From the IMG/VR virus record IMGVR_UViG_2802429225_000003, positions 1 through 17,043 of that record: a DNA stretch of 17,043 nt; one strand, written 5' to 3'. The notes below the pieces were generated by a model, which saw nothing but the letters and a program-made list of their open reading frames with translations, was not told the DNA's origin and made no database searches. Source of the DNA: a virus (taxonomy: Duplodnaviria; Heunggongvirae; Uroviricota; Caudoviricetes). Of the stretch, positions 4,272 to 9,910 are shown piece by piece (position 1 is the first letter of the stretch; every line of letters starts with the position of its first letter). Made by a program: the position numbers and the translations under genes.

Positions 4272-4297
4272 ATTTATGAATAATGAATGAGGTTTTT

Positions 4298-5047
4298 ATG
4301 GCTAGTTGCCAGAATGACTATGGAAAATTAATTGGGCGCAACGCAGTGCTTGAGGTTGTCGAGGGCTGTCCGGACACGGTGCCGCAGGAAGCCGACTGGA
4401 AGATCCTGGGGGCGATGACGACCAAATCGTTTGACCTGTCTCCAAACACCGTAACGTCAGAAGCAGACGACACGAAAGGCTTTGTTGAGGGACTGGTAAC
4501 CAGCGTGGACTTCACCATCTCTGGTGACGGCGAATGGCGTAAGCGTGATAAGCCTGGTGATTTCGGTCCGGCGTATATGACTCGCTATTACCTGCAGGAA
4601 ACAAAAGCGGGTCGCCAGCTGTCCGTGTGGGTTCGTCTGTCGTTTGCGACTATTACTATCACGGCGTACATGAATACCACAGCGTGGAGCGGAGAATTTG
4701 GCACTGGAGATATCGCGACATTCTCGGCTGAATTCAAAGTCGCAGATGCTGACAGCGTTACTGTAACGGATGACGGTGATATCGCTGTGACGAGTATAGC
4801 GGTTACGCCCAATTCACTCGGACTGAAAGTGGGAGAAAGCGGTACATTCAGCGTGAATTTTCTCCCTGCAAACGCGACAAACAAAAATTTCACCCTGGCT
4901 ACCGCCGCGCCTGCAATTGCTACAGCCAGCGTAGCAGCCTCCACTGTAACCGTAACGGCAGTAGCGGAGGGCTCGACTACGGTAACCGTGACCAGTGACG
5001 ACGGGAAATACACATCCAGTTGTGCAGTCACTGTAACGAGCGAGTGA
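4298..5047 (+). CDS. Major tail protein with C-terminal Ig-like (Big_2-type) domain
   Basis: Thr/Val/Ala-rich C-terminal segment (TVTVTAVAEGSTTVTVTSDDGK) typical of the Ig-like decoration domains on lambda gpV-type tail tube proteins; GAGG 6 nt upstream of the ATG at 4298 (an alternative ATG at 4283 lacks a Shine-Dalgarno). Confidence 0.7.
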   Translation: MASCQNDYGKLIGRNAVLEVVEGCPDTVPQEADWKILGAMTTKSFDLSPNTVTSEADDTKGFVEGLVTSVDFTISGDGEWRKRDKPGDFGPAYMTRYYLQETKAGRQLSVWVRLSFATITITAYMNTTAWSGEFGTGDIATFSAEFKVADADSVTVTDDGDIAVTSIAVTPNSLGLKVGESGTFSVNFLPANATNKNFTLATAAPAIATASVAASTVTVTAVAEGSTTVTVTSDDGKYTSSCAVTVTSE

Positions 5048-5051
5048 GAGT

Positions 5052-5708
5052 ATGGACGCACTTACAGATATCGGCGAAATGGTGATATCAACACGCGACG
5101 ATGATTTTTTTTTGCGTCCGTCTTTTATCGCTCTGACCCGAATCGGCTCTCCGGAAGAAATTGTGGAGGCGTACTCCATCATTAACGGCAGAGATTTTGG
5201 TGTACTGGTGCGCGCTGCGGAGTTGCAGGGAGTGCCGTCACCATGGCTGGTGGAATCTGTGAGCGGAACGGCATCCAGGCGAATGCTTAACGCCGCAATG
5301 ACGGTAATTCAGGCGTGTTGTGACAGGGATGCCACAACGCTGGTGGGGGAGCTGGCAGATGATTTGACTCGTCAACACGGCCTGATACCGGATACCGATA
5401 TGCTGATTATTGCGCGTGAATTACTGGAGCATGGCGTTATGGGCAAAGCGCCACTACGCAGATTGCAAAAGCACGAGAATCAGCAGACTTATACGGCAGG
5501 CTTTCGGGCTGTAGAGTATATCACCGCCGCACGTTCACACTTTGGACTTCCACGCGCCGAAGCGGAACAGCTCACAATGACCGCATTTCAGTTAATGCTT
5601 AAAGCGAAATACCCTGAAGAGAAAGGCTTCACCCGCGATGAGTACGATGGCATTATGGCTGCGCACGAGCAGCGGAAAATGCAAAAACTGGAAGCGATGA
5701 AGGCGTAG
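5052..5708 (+). CDS. Tail assembly chaperone (G/GT-like position)
   Basis: 218-aa ORF between the major tail and tape measure genes; GAGTGAGAG Shine-Dalgarno. No overlapping -1 frame extension of 60 aa or more is present downstream. Confidence 0.45.
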   Translation: MDALTDIGEMVISTRDDDFFLRPSFIALTRIGSPEEIVEAYSIINGRDFGVLVRAAELQGVPSPWLVESVSGTASRRMLNAAMTVIQACCDRDATTLVGELADDLTRQHGLIPDTDMLIIARELLEHGVMGKAPLRRLQKHENQQTYTAGFRAVEYITAARSHFGLPRAEAEQLTMTAFQLMLKAKYPEEKGFTRDEYDGIMAAHEQRKMQKLEAMKA

Positions 5709-5787
5709 TGGATTTATGTCAGAAGAATTTGCCGACGGCAGGTAATAGAAGAAAGCCCCGGAAACATTAAGCGTTCTGTAAGTAGCT

Positions 5788-5810
5788 AAATGTTTGCCGA
5801 GGCAACATTT
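5788..5810. promoter_or_regulatory. Imperfect inverted repeat (stem of about 10 bp) in an AT-rich intergenic region
   Basis: AAATGTTTGCC-GA-GGCAACATTT; lies downstream of both the + strand chaperone gene and the - strand acidic gene; no adjacent U-tract on either strand. Confidence 0.3.
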
Positions 5811-5901
5811 ATATGCTCAATACATTCAGATTAACCTTTTTCCCCCTCTTGGTTAAGGAGGCGACGGTTATTAAGTTACCAAAACAGGTGCTGCGCTTGT
5901 G

Positions 5902-6270
5902 TTATTCATGATGTGAATATTGCAAATCGTCAGCTTCACGAGATATATCAAAAAGGATATTTATCGCCAGAAGATATGCATTATCTACAACGCCATATGT
6001 CTCTGGAGTGATAGTGTTAGTATATCGATCGAAAGCATCTTCCAGGTAATCAAGCAAATCGTCATTTAAATACTCACTTCTCGGATCAAGCGCATGCAGA
6101 CCTTTAATACTCTCTCTATATTCGCTGAAGATTTTTGATATAAACGCTTGTTGTTCTGACCAATCATACAAATTAGCAATGGTAAGAGGCCTGTTAAGTT
6201 GTTCAAGTCGGGTGAGTTCACGAACCAACGACTGACAACCATCTCGAAGTTTTTCTGCTGTTAATGCCAT
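5902..6270 (-). CDS. Small acidic hypothetical protein (122 aa); antisense moron within the tail module
   Basis: Only convincing minus-strand gene in the window. The ATG at 6270-6268 is preceded by AGAGGG with a 6-nt spacer; the longer ORF-track form (to 6339) has no ribosome-binding site. Protein carries about 24 Asp/Glu against about 11 Lys/Arg. Flanked by AT-rich non-coding DNA. Confidence 0.55.
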   Translation of the reverse strand: MALTAEKLRDGCQSLVRELTRLEQLNRPLTIANLYDWSEQQAFISKIFSEYRESIKGLHALDPRSEYLNDDLLDYLEDAFDRYTNTITPETYGVVDNAYLLAINILFDISREADDLQYSHHE

Positions 6271-6412
6271 AATTAGCCCTCTGAGATTATTTATAGAAAG
6301 TAATATCTTACTATTTTTGCATTGAAGGCGGAGCTTCACCAGCCAGTTTTGTCAATTCAGTTATGGTGAGCGACTCCTGGCCTTCATGATGTATGACGAT
6401 GTAACAAGACCA

Positions 6413-6437
6413 CCTCGCTCCGGCGGGGTTTTTTATT
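6413..6437 (+). terminator. Hairpin plus T-tract just upstream of the tape measure start
   Basis: CCUCGC-UCCG-GCGGGG stem-loop (6 bp with one G-U pair, tetraloop) followed by TTTTTTATT, ending 15 nt before the tape measure ATG. Confidence 0.3.
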
Positions 6438-6451
6438 GCCCGGAGAATGAC

Positions 6452-9400
6452 ATGGCAGATGAGAAGAACGTCGGCAGTATCGTTTATGAAATAAGCGCAG
6501 ATGTCAAACCGCTGCTACAGGGCGGGAAGCAGGCCATTGATGCACTGGACAAACTGGATACTGCAGCCCAGCAGTCTGGAAGAGGGATGAGTAACCTGGA
6601 CCAGAGCGCGTCGCAAACCGGCACCACGTTTACTGAACTGGCCAGTTATGCTAACTCAATGGACAATCAGCTTCGTAAGCTGAACACCAGCGTGAGCGGT
6701 ATTGCGCGCGCGATGATGGAGGCTCGTACTGGTGTCAGCAGTACCACGAGTGAGTTAAATCGTGGCAATGCAGTAATTGAAGCACTCGGTAACCAGGTCG
6801 CAATACTTGAGGAAGCCCAGGAGAACGGAGCCAGAAGCGCAGCAGTTTTCGCCTCGCAGTTAAGAGCTGGTGCCAATGCTACGGAGGAAGAAAAGCGCAC
6901 TATCGCCGAATTGGCAGGCGTGTTTTATGATCTTAGCGCCGCCTCCGCTAAGGCTGCTAAATCAGCCGCATCGATGGCGGCCGCAACCCAACGTACAGAA
7001 TCATCAATATCCGGACTAGAGAAGGAAGTCTCTATTCTGAATACTGAGATGCAAACTGGTTCCAGAAGTGCTGCCATACTTGCTGCTCAGTTTAGTGCTG
7101 GTGAAGGTGCGTCTGACGCGCAAAAAGCCAAAATTGCACAGCTTGCAGGTGCTCTTTTTGATATGCGGGAGGCGCAAAAATCTGCATCTGCGGCATCAGC
7201 GGAGGCAGCTAAGCAACTTGCGCAGCAGGCAAATGAAGCGAACCGTATCAGCGGAATCACATCTGACCTTTCTAATCAAATAGCTATCCTGAGCGAACAG
7301 CAAACCAACGGAGCCCGCAGCGCAGCAATTCTGGCTGCTCAGTTACGAGCCGGAGCAAGTGCAACTGATGCCGATAAGCAGAAAATAGCCCAATTAACCG
7401 GGCAACTGTACGACATGAAGAACAGTGTCGATACAGGCACAAAAAGCCACGTCAACTGGAAAACCAGCGTACAGCAGGCCGGTTACCAGGTTCAGGACTT
7501 CATTGTTCAGGTGCAGGGTGGTCAGTCTGCTCTTGTTGCGCTCTCGCAGCAAGGATCTCAGCTTGCCGGGATTTTCGGCCCTGGCGGTGCGGTGGTTGGG
7601 GCTATAATTGCGCTTGGTTCTGTCCTCGCGGGCGTGTTGATTACGTCGCTGAATGGCGGCAAGAATGCCATGGTTGCGCTGAAAGAGGCTGCCGAGGCAA
7701 TGGACAAGGTGATCATCGTATCATCACAAGGTGTAGCCGCTCTTTCGGATAAATATGCGGCCCTTGCGCGTGTAAACGCTGACGTTGCAACGCTGCTCCG
7801 TAATCAGGCGCTGCTTGAGTATAACCAGGCCATTTCCAAGATACCGAAGGCCATAAGCGAAGCATCTGATGCTTTTATTACGTTCGGCGACCGTGCGATT
7901 GCCGCCGTTGGCGGGGCGTCGCCGAGCATCAAAAAATTCAACGCCGAGTTGTCCGCTCTCGGGGTCACTTCGAAGGAATGGGGAGAGGCAATTCAGCAGG
8001 CCAATAGTCAGGGGCAGTACGCATCTGGCATCGTAAACTCGCTGTCATCAACGGTGAATACACTTTCATCCCGACTTGGAATAAGCAAACAAGCTGCGTT
8101 TGATTTGGCAAGAGAATTGTCAAATCTGAGTAATAACCCATCACCGGAAGCACTTCAGGAGCTGGCGAAAAAACTCCAGGACATGAAGTCGTCATCCACT
8201 GACGGGCAGTCGGCCATCGCAGGACTGGCGGGTAAGCTTGTTGATCTGGCGAGAGAGGCAGCCAACGCGAAGATCAATGTAGACAGCCTGAATCAGTCCA
8301 CCGATAACCTGACCGCCGGACAGAAAAACCTTATCAAGCAGTCCGGACGTAACCTTGCCCTGTCAAAACTACAGGGTGAGGCTCGGGCCCGCCTGCAGGC
8401 ACAGTATGCCGCTGAAGATGCGGGATTTTCGAAGGACGATCCGCACGCCAAACAGATGGAGAACGACGCCGCAGCTACGTACAAAAATACGCAGGCGCAG
8501 AAAGATTTCCAGTCAACACATAAGAAAAGCATTTCACTGGCTGATTCTGTTGCTCAGAAGTTAGCGAATCTCAAGCAGCAATCGGAGCTCGCAGCCGACT
8601 CAACAAATGAGCTGAGCCGTGAGCAGGCCATGCTGACTGCGCAGCAGTCTCTTGGTAAAGGTGCAACCAAAGAGCAGATCGTATTAGCTGGTCAGTATGC
8701 AGCAAAAAAATGGGATACAGCCAACGCCATAAAAGCTGAAGCAGCGGCCCGAAAGCTCCTCCCTGAAGCAGCAGAGAACGCCAGTTACAAACAGGATGTT
8801 GAAGATCTGAATACCGCCCTGGCTGCGAAGAAAATAAGCCAGGAGCAGTACAATCAAACCTCGGAAAGACTGGCAGCAACACACCAGGCTAACCTCGCAA
8901 AAATTCAGTCGCAGCAGGTGGTAACGCCTCAACAGGAACTTGCGGCGCAGGTTGATCCCGTTCAGCAACTGGCGAATGAGAACGCAAAGAAACTGATACT
9001 CATTGATGAGTACAACAAGGCTGCGCTTGCAATCGTAAATGCAAGGCTGGCTAATGAGTCGCTAAGTCAGAGTGAAGCTGCTGCACAGTCAGCCGCTATT
9101 AACGCAAATACTCTTGCGTTAAAAAATACTCAGGAAACACAGTATGAGGAACAGAGGCTGGCAGCTCTGGAGCAGCAGTACCGTGCGCAATCAGTGTTGA
9201 ATGACTTTACGATGGATATGATCGACGCAGTCGGGCAACGAACCACCAACGCAATCACCGGCATTATTACCGGAACGCAGTCAGCAACAGATGCGCTACG
9301 AAATATGGCTTCAACAATTCTTGATCAGGCCGTTGGTGCTTTAGTTCAGATGGGTGTCCAGGCACTTAAAAACATGCTGATAGGGCAGTCAGCCAGTGCT

Positions 9401-9910
9401 GCTTCTGTTGCGCAGGCTGCAATAACAGGGCCTGCCATTGCCGCAGCATACAGCCCGGCAGCGGCGATGGTTTCGCTCGCATCATTTGGTGCAAATGCCG
9501 CAGCAGCTCAGACGGGGATCGCTTCAACAATGGGACTTACAAAAATGCTGTCCGTCGCTGGCGCTCGCTACAACGGTGGCCCGGTTTCCGCTAACTCAAT
9601 GTATCGCGTAGGTGAAAACGGCAAGCCAGAAATATTCCAGGCCAGCAACGGCAGTCAGTACATGATCCCCGGCGATAACGGACGAGTTGTCAGCAACAGA
9701 GATATGCAGGGCGGAAATAGTTCATCTCCTGTAAATATTGTCATTAACAATACGGCAGCGGGAACCGTTGTAGAAAATCAGGGTTTTAATCCGGACACGA
9801 AAACTATCACCCTCGCAGTGAACGAAGTCGCAAGGCAATTACGCTCGCATACGGGGGTAGTTGCTCGTGCATTGTCTGATAGCTGGAACACCACAGGAAA
9901 GGCACAATAA
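6452..9910 (+). CDS. Tail tape measure protein
   Basis: Longest ORF (about 1152 aa from the ATG at 6452, which has GGAGA 5 nt upstream; the upstream ATG at 6386 has none). Ala/Gln-rich helical composition, internal tandem repeats, a central hydrophobic Gly-rich segment (AGIFGPGGAVVGAIIALGSVLAGVLITSL) and placement before the tail-tip genes. Confidence 0.85.
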   Translation: MADEKNVGSIVYEISADVKPLLQGGKQAIDALDKLDTAAQQSGRGMSNLDQSASQTGTTFTELASYANSMDNQLRKLNTSVSGIARAMMEARTGVSSTTSELNRGNAVIEALGNQVAILEEAQENGARSAAVFASQLRAGANATEEEKRTIAELAGVFYDLSAASAKAAKSAASMAAATQRTESSISGLEKEVSILNTEMQTGSRSAAILAAQFSAGEGASDAQKAKIAQLAGALFDMREAQKSASAASAEAAKQLAQQANEANRISGITSDLSNQIAILSEQQTNGARSAAILAAQLRAGASATDADKQKIAQLTGQLYDMKNSVDTGTKSHVNWKTSVQQAGYQVQDFIVQVQGGQSALVALSQQGSQLAGIFGPGGAVVGAIIALGSVLAGVLITSLNGGKNAMVALKEAAEAMDKVIIVSSQGVAALSDKYAALARVNADVATLLRNQALLEYNQAISKIPKAISEASDAFITFGDRAIAAVGGASPSIKKFNAELSALGVTSKEWGEAIQQANSQGQYASGIVNSLSSTVNTLSSRLGISKQAAFDLARELSNLSNNPSPEALQELAKKLQDMKSSSTDGQSAIAGLAGKLVDLAREAANAKINVDSLNQSTDNLTAGQKNLIKQSGRNLALSKLQGEARARLQAQYAAEDAGFSKDDPHAKQMENDAAATYKNTQAQKDFQSTHKKSISLADSVAQKLANLKQQSELAADSTNELSREQAMLTAQQSLGKGATKEQIVLAGQYAAKKWDTANAIKAEAAARKLLPEAAENASYKQDVEDLNTALAAKKISQEQYNQTSERLAATHQANLAKIQSQQVVTPQQELAAQVDPVQQLANENAKKLILIDEYNKAALAIVNARLANESLSQSEAAAQSAAINANTLALKNTQETQYEEQRLAALEQQYRAQSVLNDFTMDMIDAVGQRTTNAITGIITGTQSATDALRNMASTILDQAVGALVQMGVQALKNMLIGQSASAASVAQAAITGPAIAAAYSPAAAMVSLASFGANAAAAQTGIASTMGLTKMLSVAGARYNGGPVSANSMYRVGENGKPEIFQASNGSQYMIPGDNGRVVSNRDMQGGNSSSPVNIVINNTAAGTVVENQGFNPDTKTITLAVNEVARQLRSHTGVVARALSDSWNTTGKAQ
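6750..7440 (+). repeat. Three in-frame tandem repeats of about 77-84 codons inside the tape measure gene
   Basis: Recurring peptide units NGARSAAVFASQLRAGANATEEEKRTIAELAGVFYDL / TGSRSAAILAAQFSAGEGASDAQKAKIAQLAGALFDM / NGARSAAILAAQLRAGASATDADKQKIAQLTGQLYDM, with cores starting near 6824, 7055 and 7307. Confidence 0.6.

What the first reader, a model, noticed from the sequence alone, without database searches (positions are those of the whole stretch)
5788..5861. Structured AT-rich intergenic region with two inverted repeats and an orphan Shine-Dalgarno
The roughly 190-nt spacer between the chaperone gene and the antisense gene contains a 10-bp imperfect palindrome (5788-5810), a second inverted repeat TTAACC...GGTTAA (5831-5856) and a perfect TAAGGAGG (5854-5861) with no start codon at functional spacing. 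Such clustered structure in otherwise compact phage DNA suggests a regulatory element (convergent terminator, operator or small RNA) or the scar of an insertion that delivered the moron.
Basis: seen in the sequence. Interest (0 to 1): 0.25.

Follow-up and report, generated by a model that had tools for sequence, protein, structure and literature searches.

The report
Decayed hok/sok toxin–antitoxin relic
The hairpins and the "orphan" ribosome-binding site between the tail chaperone gene and the antisense moron are the leftovers of a well-known hok/sok killer-gene cassette whose toxin gene has been destroyed, so the feature is real but ordinary.

Summary
All three features are in the sequence at the stated coordinates. 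They are not a new regulatory element. [quoted passage not shown]

- It is homologous to the leaders of intact hok/sok loci: nhmmer E 9e-10 to a P1-like phage locus, and 81% identity to an intact metagenomic locus. It matches Rfam RF01794 end to end but only at 17.9 bits (cut-off 59).
- TAAGGAGG is the hok Shine-Dalgarno. The hok ATG, 8 nt downstream, has become ATT, and the reading frame stops after 13 codons.
- GGTTAA and AGATTA are probably the -35 and -10 boxes of the antisense sok promoter, read on the other strand.
- The conserved structure is a longer hairpin (5755-5803). On the minus strand it is the Sok stem followed by GGGGCUUUCUUCU.

The closest cargo-free relative joins the chaperone stop codon directly to a terminator and the tape-measure gene. 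That makes ~5709-6411 an insert: the hok/sok relic plus the moron. The moron lost its own stop codon and terminator at the junction (~5922/5923). The Sok terminator is therefore the first one downstream of it and probably ends its transcript; this last step is inferred. Interest is low.

The parts
5052..5708 (+). DUF6246 tail-assembly-chaperone-position gene (context; left flank of the insert)
   Evidence: Pfam PF19759 at 1.8e-59 and PHROG 791. It is 68% identical to the chaperone of the cargo-free relative L114.
5726..5875 (+). Decayed hok-mRNA leader / sok region, in hok-sense orientation
   Evidence: nhmmer with the leader of an intact P1-like hok/sok locus (L106) aligns to window 5726-5873 at E 9.4e-10. 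blastn gives 73-74% identity to P1-like phages and plasmids over 5743-5844, and 81% over 5745-5812 to the intact metagenomic locus L118. Rfam RF01794 aligns end to end over 5701-5875 at only 17.9 bits (cut-off 59). The same model scores 95-115 bits on the intact loci.
5742..5803 (-). Sok-like stem-loop (5803-5755) plus U tract (5754-5742, UUUCUUCUAUUAC). This is the antitoxin RNA's terminator and the probable terminator of the moron transcript. On the + strand the same stem is the ucb (anti-SD)/mok-SD hairpin.
   Evidence: The fold is -21.2 kcal/mol and has the same architecture as L106 (-27.0) with an identical tail, GGGGCUUUCUUCUAU. AGAAGAAAGCCCC is invariant among the window, L106 and L107. 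One stem pair is A-U in L106 and G-C in the window and L118. On the + strand the stem is followed by AACAUUUAUAU, which is not a U tract.
5788..5810 (.).
   Evidence: It is present and folds at z -2.45. It is absent from the intact relatives: L118 has TTAACATTTACCGAGGCCACATCT and L106 has TTAACATTAATCTGAGGCCATATC.
5799..5815 (+). mok-type SD (GAGG, 5799-5802) and mok-type ATG (5813-5815)
   Evidence: They align with GAGG...ATG of the intact loci. GAGG is named as the mok SD in PMC9841398. The resulting 32-codon ORF, 5813-5911, was called as a gene in one public assembly (L093).
5828..5856 (-). Probable sok promoter: -35 TTAACC (5856-5851), 17-nt spacer, -10 TAATCT (5833-5828).
   Evidence: In the minus-strand alignment these hexamers align with TTGACC/TAATCT (L106), TTGACC/TAGTCT (L118), TTGCTC/TAATCT (L107) and TTGCGC/TATCCT (R1-type L111). 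Only the window lacks the G of TTG. Assigning these as promoter hexamers is my inference from position. The sigma-70 scan did not report them.
5854..5861 (+). hok Shine-Dalgarno (the 'orphan' TAAGGAGG)
   Evidence: Window TAAGGAGGCGACGGTTATTAAGTTACCA aligns with R1-type CAAGGAGAAGAAGGCCATGAAACTACCA and P1-like CAAGGAGAAGCAGGCTATGAAGCAG.
5870..5911 (+). hok coding remnant: ATT (formerly ATG) followed by KLPKQVLRLCYS and a stop
   Evidence: It aligns with the N-terminus of R1-type Hok, MKLPRSSLVWC. tblastn with three Hok proteins finds no Hok-like ORF anywhere in the window.
5902..6270 (-). Antisense moron (122 aa); right-hand neighbour of the relic. The junction lies at ~5922/5923.
   Evidence: The family ends at residue 116 (READxx*). 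The window copy carries a 6-residue tail, QYSHHE, read from foreign sequence. Homologues lie antisense in the tail regions of other prophage types.
6412..6452 (+). Family-conserved intrinsic terminator and SD just upstream of the true tape-measure start (6453); right edge of the insert
   Evidence: Terminator scan. In L114 the same element follows the chaperone stop codon directly. It is conserved in most family loci and in unrelated phages.

Best explanation
[quoted passage not shown] It lies in the same orientation as the late genes, inside a ~700-bp cargo insert at the chaperone/tape-measure junction.

What each feature is:
- The conserved long hairpin (5755-5803) is the stem that pairs the anti-SD (ucb) with the mok SD in hok mRNA. 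On the other strand it is the body and terminator of the Sok antitoxin RNA.
- TAAGGAGG is the hok ribosome-binding site.
- TTAACC and TAATCT on the minus strand are most likely the sok promoter hexamers.

Why the toxin cannot be made:
- Its ATG is now ATT.
- The frame stops after 13 codons.
- Everything 3' of about codon 17, including the fbi element, has been replaced by the oppositely oriented moron.
- The 5' tac stem is not recognisable.

Shown: homology, anatomy, the insert boundaries and the loss of the toxin.

Inferred: the moron lost its own stop codon and terminator at the junction, so its transcript runs through the relic and is ended by the Sok hairpin and U tract at ~5745, before it can read antisense into the tail genes. 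Late (+ strand) transcription passes through, because the same hairpin has no U tract on that strand.

The lineage-specific 5788-5810 palindrome and the SD have no present role that I can support.
For: - Homology to bona fide hok/sok leaders: nhmmer E 9.4e-10; blastn hits in 398 E. coli genomes, 431 plasmids and 7 phage records, all P1-like in every row checked; 81% identity to intact L118.
- RF01794 aligns full-length at 5701-5875 and ends at the hok start position. The same model scores 95-115 bits on the homologous intact loci, each followed by a 50-51-aa Hok ORF.
- SD and start-codon alignment with R1-type and P1-like hok.
- The Sok hairpin and U tract have the same architecture as in the intact loci.
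- Cargo-free relative L114: stop codon, then terminator, then tape-measure gene. This junction is a cargo hot spot across the family.
- The moron carries a 6-residue foreign tail. Moron homologues that end a transcription unit have a canonical terminator 15-30 nt after their stop.
- hok is reported enriched in prophages, and degenerate hok CDS are reported (bioRxiv 10.1101/2025.08.07.668861). A prophage hokW/sokW system is characterised (PMC8621323).
Against: - The Rfam score is far below the gathering cut-off, and about nine pairs of the first helix are non-canonical. Left of ~5726-5743 the homology is doubtful.
- The 13-codon Hok remnant is too short for a significant protein match on its own.
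- The terminator role is not measured. The stem-loop is 49 nt with a 12-nt apical loop, longer than typical terminators, and the simple scan did not flag it.
- All ~25 contigs that carry the locus are 99.6-100% identical, so there is no conservation test within the lineage.
Confidence: 0.82

Rival explanations
1. A functional orphan antitoxin. A Sok-like small RNA of ~75 nt is still made, either from its own promoter or carried in the moron's 3' UTR. It acts in trans on hok mRNAs of the same lineage. This would protect the lysogen or phage from hok-based post-segregational killing or phage exclusion.
For: The sok transcription unit is the part that survives, with an intact stem and U tract (z -4.1). 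A second, independent relic in P1-like plasmids (L107 type, 127 E. coli genomes) keeps the same unit.
Against: - The -35 hexamer has lost the conserved G (TTAACC against TTG in all four comparators).
- No sequence in 5,426 complete E. coli genomes, 72,556 plasmids or 50,697 phage records is more than ~74-77% identical to it, so no target is in sight.
- Diverged chromosomal Sok RNAs did not inhibit R1 hok (PMC9841398).
- Survival of the sok part may be a detection bias, because it was the search query.
Confidence: 0.06
2. A wholly inert scar. The relic is hok/sok-derived, but none of it does anything now. The moron transcript ends by Rho action or at another site.
For: The identity evidence is the same as for the best explanation. 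The apical part of the stem has decayed relative to L106 and L118. There is a weak hairpin at 5884-5900.
Against: On the minus strand, a -21 kcal/mol GC-based stem is followed directly by UUUCUUCU, which is a competent terminator signature. It is the first such signal downstream of a gene that has lost its own terminator.
Confidence: 0.1
3. A purpose-built regulatory element for the moron or the late operon: an operator palindrome, an attenuator, or a translated small ORF (32 aa, 5813-5911), unrelated to hok/sok.
For: There are alternative pairings: AAACATT (5762-5768) and AACATTT (5804-5810) both complement AAATGTT (5788-5794). One assembly calls the 32-aa ORF.
Against: - The sequence is explained base by base by homology to hok/sok.
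- The palindrome is absent from relatives.
- The flanks of moron homologues share nothing with it.
- The 32-aa ORF matches no family and is simply a mok start fused to a hok remnant.
Confidence: 0.02

Closest known systems
hok/sok (parB) of plasmid R1 and its family of type I toxin-antitoxin loci (Rfam RF01794 leader; Hok/Gef toxins)
   Same: It has the same order of elements in the leader: the ucb/anti-SD block AAAGCCCC, the GAGG mok SD, the mok ATG, the AAGGAG hok SD and a KLP... N-terminus. An antisense sok unit with a stem and U tract lies on the other strand. The element names are from PMC9841398.
   Different: There is no toxin: ATG has become ATT, the frame has 13 codons, and the C-terminal two thirds are replaced. 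There is no fbi element and no recognisable tac stem or hok promoter. The Rfam score is 17.9 against a cut-off of 59. The sok -35 hexamer is weakened.
hokW/sokW of the Stx2 prophage Sp5, and the homologous locus of P1-like phages (L106, annotated MokW)
   Same: These are phage-borne hok/sok loci. The P1-like locus is the best database match in the annotated collections (73-74% identity) and shares the invariant AGAAGAAAGCCCC block and the TAATCT -10 hexamer.
   Different: They are intact: 51-aa Hok, RF01794 at ~115 bits, and hokW/sokW is experimentally active (PMC8621323). In the phage records I checked (PhiR42_1 and PPompW), the Hok genes lie beside relBE, rem, ydfU and Q genes; in P1-like elements the locus is next to repL. 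Neither is in a tail module.
Degenerate hok loci, including the sok-only relic of P1-like plasmids (L107 type) found here
   Same: The toxin is lost and the leader survives. In L107 a minus-strand gene ends exactly where hok should start, as in the window. A census of Hok reports 5.1% of unique CDS under 40 aa and 2.6% with internal stops, which it removed as degenerate (10.1101/2025.08.07.668861).
   Different: The events and lineages are independent, and the neighbouring genes differ. The window copy is more diverged and retains the first hok codons.
Morons of lambdoid and HK97-like phages (a promoter-gene-terminator unit inserted between neighbouring late genes; my knowledge of Juhala et al. 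2000, not checked here)
   Same: The cargo lies between two genes that are adjacent in a close relative, at a junction that carries different cargo in many relatives.
   Different: The insert is composite, made of a TA relic plus an antisense gene. The gene's terminator appears to be borrowed from the relic, and no sigma-70-like promoter was found.

Membership tests
[quoted passage not shown] | Hok toxin ORF of ~50 aa with a transmembrane helix and a conserved C-terminal part | tested here: not met
   tblastn with three Hok proteins finds nothing Hok-like in the window. The aligned frame is 13 codons long, IKLPKQVLRLCYS*.
[quoted passage not shown] | Canonical start codon at working distance from the hok SD | tested here: not met
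   ATT at 5870 sits where intact loci have ATG. No ATG, GTG or TTG lies within 4-12 nt.
[quoted passage not shown] | Leader RNA reaches the Rfam RF01794 gathering score (59 bits) | tested here: not met
   The score is 17.9 bits, with E 0.05-0.2, and there is no hit at gathering threshold. Intact comparators score 95-115 bits.
[quoted passage not shown] | Sequence homology to leaders of proven or intact loci (descent from the family) | tested here: met
   nhmmer E 9.4e-10 to the L106 leader. blastn 81% over 68 nt, E 1e-11, to L118. Co-linear alignment with four loci.
[quoted passage not shown] | Antisense sok gene: promoter, stem-loop and U tract opposite the mok/hok initiation region | tested here: inconclusive
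   The stem (-21.2 kcal/mol) and the tail UUUCUUCUAUU are present and homologous. The putative -35 is TTAACC, with the conserved G lost, and the promoter scan finds no match. Expression is not testable here.
[quoted passage not shown] | 5' tac element and 3' fbi element for the long-range fold-back | tested here: not met
   About nine pairs of Rfam helix 1 are non-canonical. nhmmer homology starts only at 5726. The 3' end of the locus is replaced by the moron from ~5923.
Rho-independent terminator (minus strand, 5803-5742) | GC-rich stem followed directly by a U-rich tract on the transcribed strand | tested here: met
   The base of the stem is GCCUCGG/CCGGGGC, followed by UUUCUUCUAUU. The stem-loop is long (49 nt), so the simple scan, which allows loops of 3-8 nt, did not list it.
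Rho-independent terminator (minus strand, 5803-5742) | Transcripts actually end there | not testable with these tools
   This needs Term-seq or 3'-RACE in a lysogen.
Moron-type cargo insert | Lies between two genes that are adjacent in related phages | tested here: met
   L114 has only 38 nt between the chaperone and the tape-measure gene, and those 38 nt are the terminator and SD. IMG/VR relatives have from zero to several kb of varied cargo here.

The most novel reading that the evidence does not exclude
The surviving sok unit is a working orphan antitoxin. A Sok-like RNA would be made from its own weakened promoter or as part of the moron's 3' UTR. It would silence hok mRNAs of the same lineage that enter on plasmids or other phages. 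This would make it an 'anti-addiction' or anti-exclusion device carried in a tail module. The parallel sok-only relic in P1-like plasmids would then be a second example.
Probability: 0.05. Interest if true: 0.55.

Novelty: already known. Interest (0 to 1): 0.15.

Why it matters
It matters mainly for annotation. An apparently mysterious cluster of hairpins with a perfect, unused ribosome-binding site has a complete and mundane explanation, and it need not be pursued as a new regulatory RNA.

Two smaller points may interest phage genomicists:
- Cargo at the chaperone/tape-measure junction can be composite. Here a later arrival (the moron) overwrote an earlier one (hok/sok) and seems to have taken over its terminator.
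- Sub-threshold Rfam hits combined with nhmmer against one intact homologue can identify decayed type I toxin-antitoxin loci that protein-based censuses discard.

Tried and rejected
- **Chaperone G/GT-style frameshift extension into the spacer.** The -1 frame closes after ~20 codons and I saw no slippery heptamer by eye. Relatives place the tape-measure gene directly after the chaperone. Rejected.
- **Flank belonging to the moron cassette.** Nine loci with moron homologues (Salmonella, Enterobacter, Serratia, Yersinia) share nothing with 5709-5901. Rejected.
- **Conservation at the same junction in 80 IMG/VR relatives of the chaperone.** No similarity was found. The single nhmmer hit in L039 (E 0.01) lies in coding sequence and has no Rfam support, so I treat it as spurious.
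- **Closer relatives of the relic.**
  - Exact and degenerate pattern scans of IMG/VR found none.
  - The GTDB genome scan found only P1-like intact loci.
  - Of two metagenome scans, the first found nothing and the second found one intact locus, L118.
- **Live type I toxin.** The 32-aa ORF matches no family. It is a fused mok/hok remnant.
- **Other RNA families, tRNA or tmRNA.** None found.
- **Promoters.** The sigma-70 scan found no promoter for the moron or for sok in 5000-7000.
- **Hok genes near tail genes in other phages.** In the two loci I opened, Hok lay next to relBE, rem, ydfU and Q genes, not in tail modules.
- **Variation within the lineage.** It is too low to test selection: 0-3 differences in 851 nt, and only one of them (5883 A>C) falls in the relic.

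Full report
**1. Observation**

The window is a siphovirus-type structural module. It runs from a major capsid-like protein through a tail terminator and an Ig-domain major tail protein (4283-5047) to a DUF6246 protein in the tail-chaperone position (5052-5708). A short antisense ORF follows, then a ~1150-aa tape-measure protein and the distal tail genes.

The spacer between the chaperone stop and the antisense gene's stop is 193 nt (5709-5901).
- TAAGGAGG occurs twice in 17 kb, against 0.29 expected. The only start-like triplet at working distance is ATT, 8 nt downstream.
- The spacer has more short perfect stems than shuffles (5 against 0.85).
- The 5788-5810 hairpin is modestly better than chance (z -2.45). 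The TTAACC/GGTTAA region is not (z +0.75 on the + strand).

**2. Context: the spacer is part of an insert**

Exact-protein look-ups found the same locus in about 25 contigs, including Escherichia chromosomes. All are 99.6-100% identical across 5650-6500, so they give no comparative signal.

The closest diverged relative is a Salmonella prophage, L114, with 68% chaperone identity. It has only 38 nt between the chaperone and the tape-measure gene: the stop codon TAA, then the hairpin CCCGCTCCGGCGGG with a T6 run, an SD, and the ATG.

The window carries the same terminator and SD at 6412-6452. The true tape-measure start is 6453, not the mechanical ORF start at 6386. So ~5709-6411 is inserted DNA.

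Among 80 IMG/VR relatives of the chaperone, this junction holds anything from nothing to several kb of unrelated genes in either orientation. It is a cargo hot spot.

**3. What the spacer is**

A permissive Rfam scan gave one full-length but weak hit: RF01794 'sok', window 5701-5875 on the + strand, 17.9 bits against a gathering score of 59.

Independently, sensitive blastn matched window 5743-5844 at 73-74% identity. The matches were unannotated DNA in 398 E. coli genomes (395 on plasmids), 431 plasmids and 7 phage records, and every row I checked was P1-like.

In a P1-like phage (L106), the matching place is RF01794 at 114.9 bits. It is followed immediately by an intact 51-aa Hok toxin ORF, annotated MokW. 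nhmmer with that 175-nt leader hits the window at 5726-5873 with E 9.4e-10. It hits nothing else among the chaperone-family or moron-family loci.

A metagenome scan found a closer intact locus, L118: RF01794 at 95 bits, a 50-aa Hok, and 81% identity to window 5745-5812.

Homology to hok/sok leaders is therefore established. The sub-threshold Rfam score reflects decay.

**4. Feature-by-feature assignment**

These assignments rest on the alignments. Element names are from PMC9841398.
- AGAAGAAAGCCCC (5746-5758) is invariant among the window and the P1-like loci. It contains the ucb/anti-SD.
- That block pairs with the GAGG mok SD (5799-5802) in a long stem, 5755-5803.
- The mok-type ATG is at 5813.
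- The 'orphan' TAAGGAGG aligns with the AAGGAG hok SD of the R1-type and P1-like loci. Those loci have ATG 7-8 nt downstream; the window has ATT (5870).
- The following codons, KLPKQVLRLC, align with R1-type Hok MKLPRSSLVWC. The frame stops at 5909-5911.
- No Hok-like ORF exists anywhere in the window.

On the minus strand the same DNA reads as a sok unit.
- The hexamers are TTAACC (5856-5851), a 17-nt spacer, then TAATCT (5833-5828). They align with TTGACC/TAATCT, TTGACC/TAGTCT, TTGCTC/TAATCT and TTGCGC/TATCCT in the four comparators. Calling these the promoter hexamers is my inference from their position.
- Downstream lies a stem-loop (5803-5755, -21.2 kcal/mol) followed by UUUCUUCUAUU. The architecture and tail match the intact loci.
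- One stem pair is A-U in the P1-like loci and G-C in the window and L118.

Two window-specific changes create it: CA>TG in the right arm of the conserved stem, and CACATCT>AACATTT downstream.

**5. Boundaries and history**

The antisense gene belongs to a small Enterobacterales family of 116-aa proteins. They sit antisense in the tail regions of several prophage types. Their profile matches an integron-cassette protein of unknown function, PDB 3FXH, at E 1e-20.

All homologues end ...READxx*. The window copy reads on for six more residues, QYSHHE, to a stop at 5902. The junction between moron-derived and hok-derived DNA is therefore at ~5922/5923. The moron's tail and stop codon are antisense hok sequence.

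Where homologues end a transcription unit, they have a canonical terminator 15-30 nt after the stop. The window copy has lost that.

The left edge of the relic lies somewhere between 5709 and 5743. Its exact position is unresolved:
- nhmmer homology starts at 5726.
- blastn homology starts at 5743.
- The tiny ORF MSEEFADGR (5716-5745) looks a little like family tape-measure N-termini such as MSEEQVGE.

**6. How it most likely works now**

Shown: the toxin half is dead. There is no start codon, the frame has 13 codons, there is no fbi element, and the tac stem is not recognisable.

Inferred: the moron transcript, lacking its own terminator, runs about 150 nt through the relic and ends at the Sok stem and U tract. 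This is the first hairpin with a U tract downstream on that strand. The same stem has no U tract on the + strand, so late transcription toward the tape-measure gene is not blocked.

The sok promoter may be weak or dead, because the conserved G of its -35 hexamer is lost.

A trans-acting antitoxin role is unlikely. Nothing in the E. coli, plasmid or phage collections is more than ~77% identical to it. Diverged chromosomal Sok RNAs also failed to inhibit R1 hok (PMC9841398).

**7. Comparison with what is known, and novelty**

hok/sok is a textbook type I toxin-antitoxin system.
- hok genes are reported enriched in prophages, with 9.3% of Escherichia phages carrying one (10.1101/2025.08.07.668861).
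- A prophage system, hokW/sokW, has been characterised (PMC8621323).
- Degenerate hok CDS are common enough to be filtered out of censuses.

This locus fails the defining tests for a functional member: no toxin ORF, no start codon, and an Rfam score below the cut-off. It passes the test of descent. It is best described as a relic of a known family, with a plausible second life as a terminator.

Interest is low. The main value is that the finding is explained.

**8. Limits**
- No expression data are available.
- There is no informative variation within the lineage.
- The promoter and terminator assignments come from sequence and alignment only.
- The order of the two insertions, and the origin of 5709-5742, are open.

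Noticed in passing
window 6412-6452 (+): An intrinsic terminator (ACCTCGCTCCGGCGGGGT plus a T run) and an SD lie just upstream of the true tape-measure start. They are 92-100% identical in otherwise unrelated phages, prophages and phage-plasmids (ES18, HK225 and mEp390, where it is annotated 'terminator'; also Klebsiella and Salmonella elements). In most loci of this chaperone family the element lies just upstream of the tape-measure gene where that gene is visible, and it sometimes occurs twice per locus. A strong sense-strand terminator inside a late operon implies antiterminated late transcription, and it may serve as a shared recombination joint for cargo exchange.
   Followed up: partly
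window 5708/5709 to 6411/6412; loci L001-L080, L114: The DUF6246-chaperone/tape-measure junction is a cargo hot spot. Relatives carry from nothing to several kb of unrelated genes in both orientations at this one point.
   Followed up: partly
window 5902-6270 (-): The moron belongs to a small Enterobacterales family of 116-aa proteins with no Pfam, PHROG, NCBIfam or PADLOC match. Its profile matches PDB 3FXH, 'integron gene cassette protein HFX_CASS2' (E 1e-20). Homologues sit antisense inside the tail modules of several different prophage types. In Yersinia the homologue lies just downstream of a cI-like HTH/S24 repressor.
   Followed up: partly
L107 2497-2632 (E. coli AR435 P1-like plasmid) and 127 E. 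coli genomes: Many P1-like plasmids carry a 'sok-only' relic at the place where other P1-like elements have an intact hok/sok (next to repL in L106). The sok unit and hok SD are kept, the hok CDS and tac stem are gone, and a minus-strand gene ends exactly at the old hok start. This is the same layout as in the window, arrived at independently.
   Followed up: partly
window 6386-6452: The mechanical tape-measure ORF (6386..9910, 1174 aa) starts upstream of the terminator. Alignment with L114 and the public gene calls put the real start at 6453 (1152 aa). One public assembly uses the long form.
   Followed up: yes
window 5716-5745 (+): The tiny ORF MSEEFADGR* begins like family tape-measure proteins (MSEEQVGE..., MASEEQVG...). 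It could be the stump of an older tape-measure 5' end left at the insertion point. The similarity is too short to be significant.
   Followed up: partly
window 6271-6411 (-): No sigma-70-like promoter was found upstream of the moron. The scan found 0 hits in 5000-7000, against 2.6 expected in shuffles. How the moron is expressed is not evident from the sequence.
   Followed up: no
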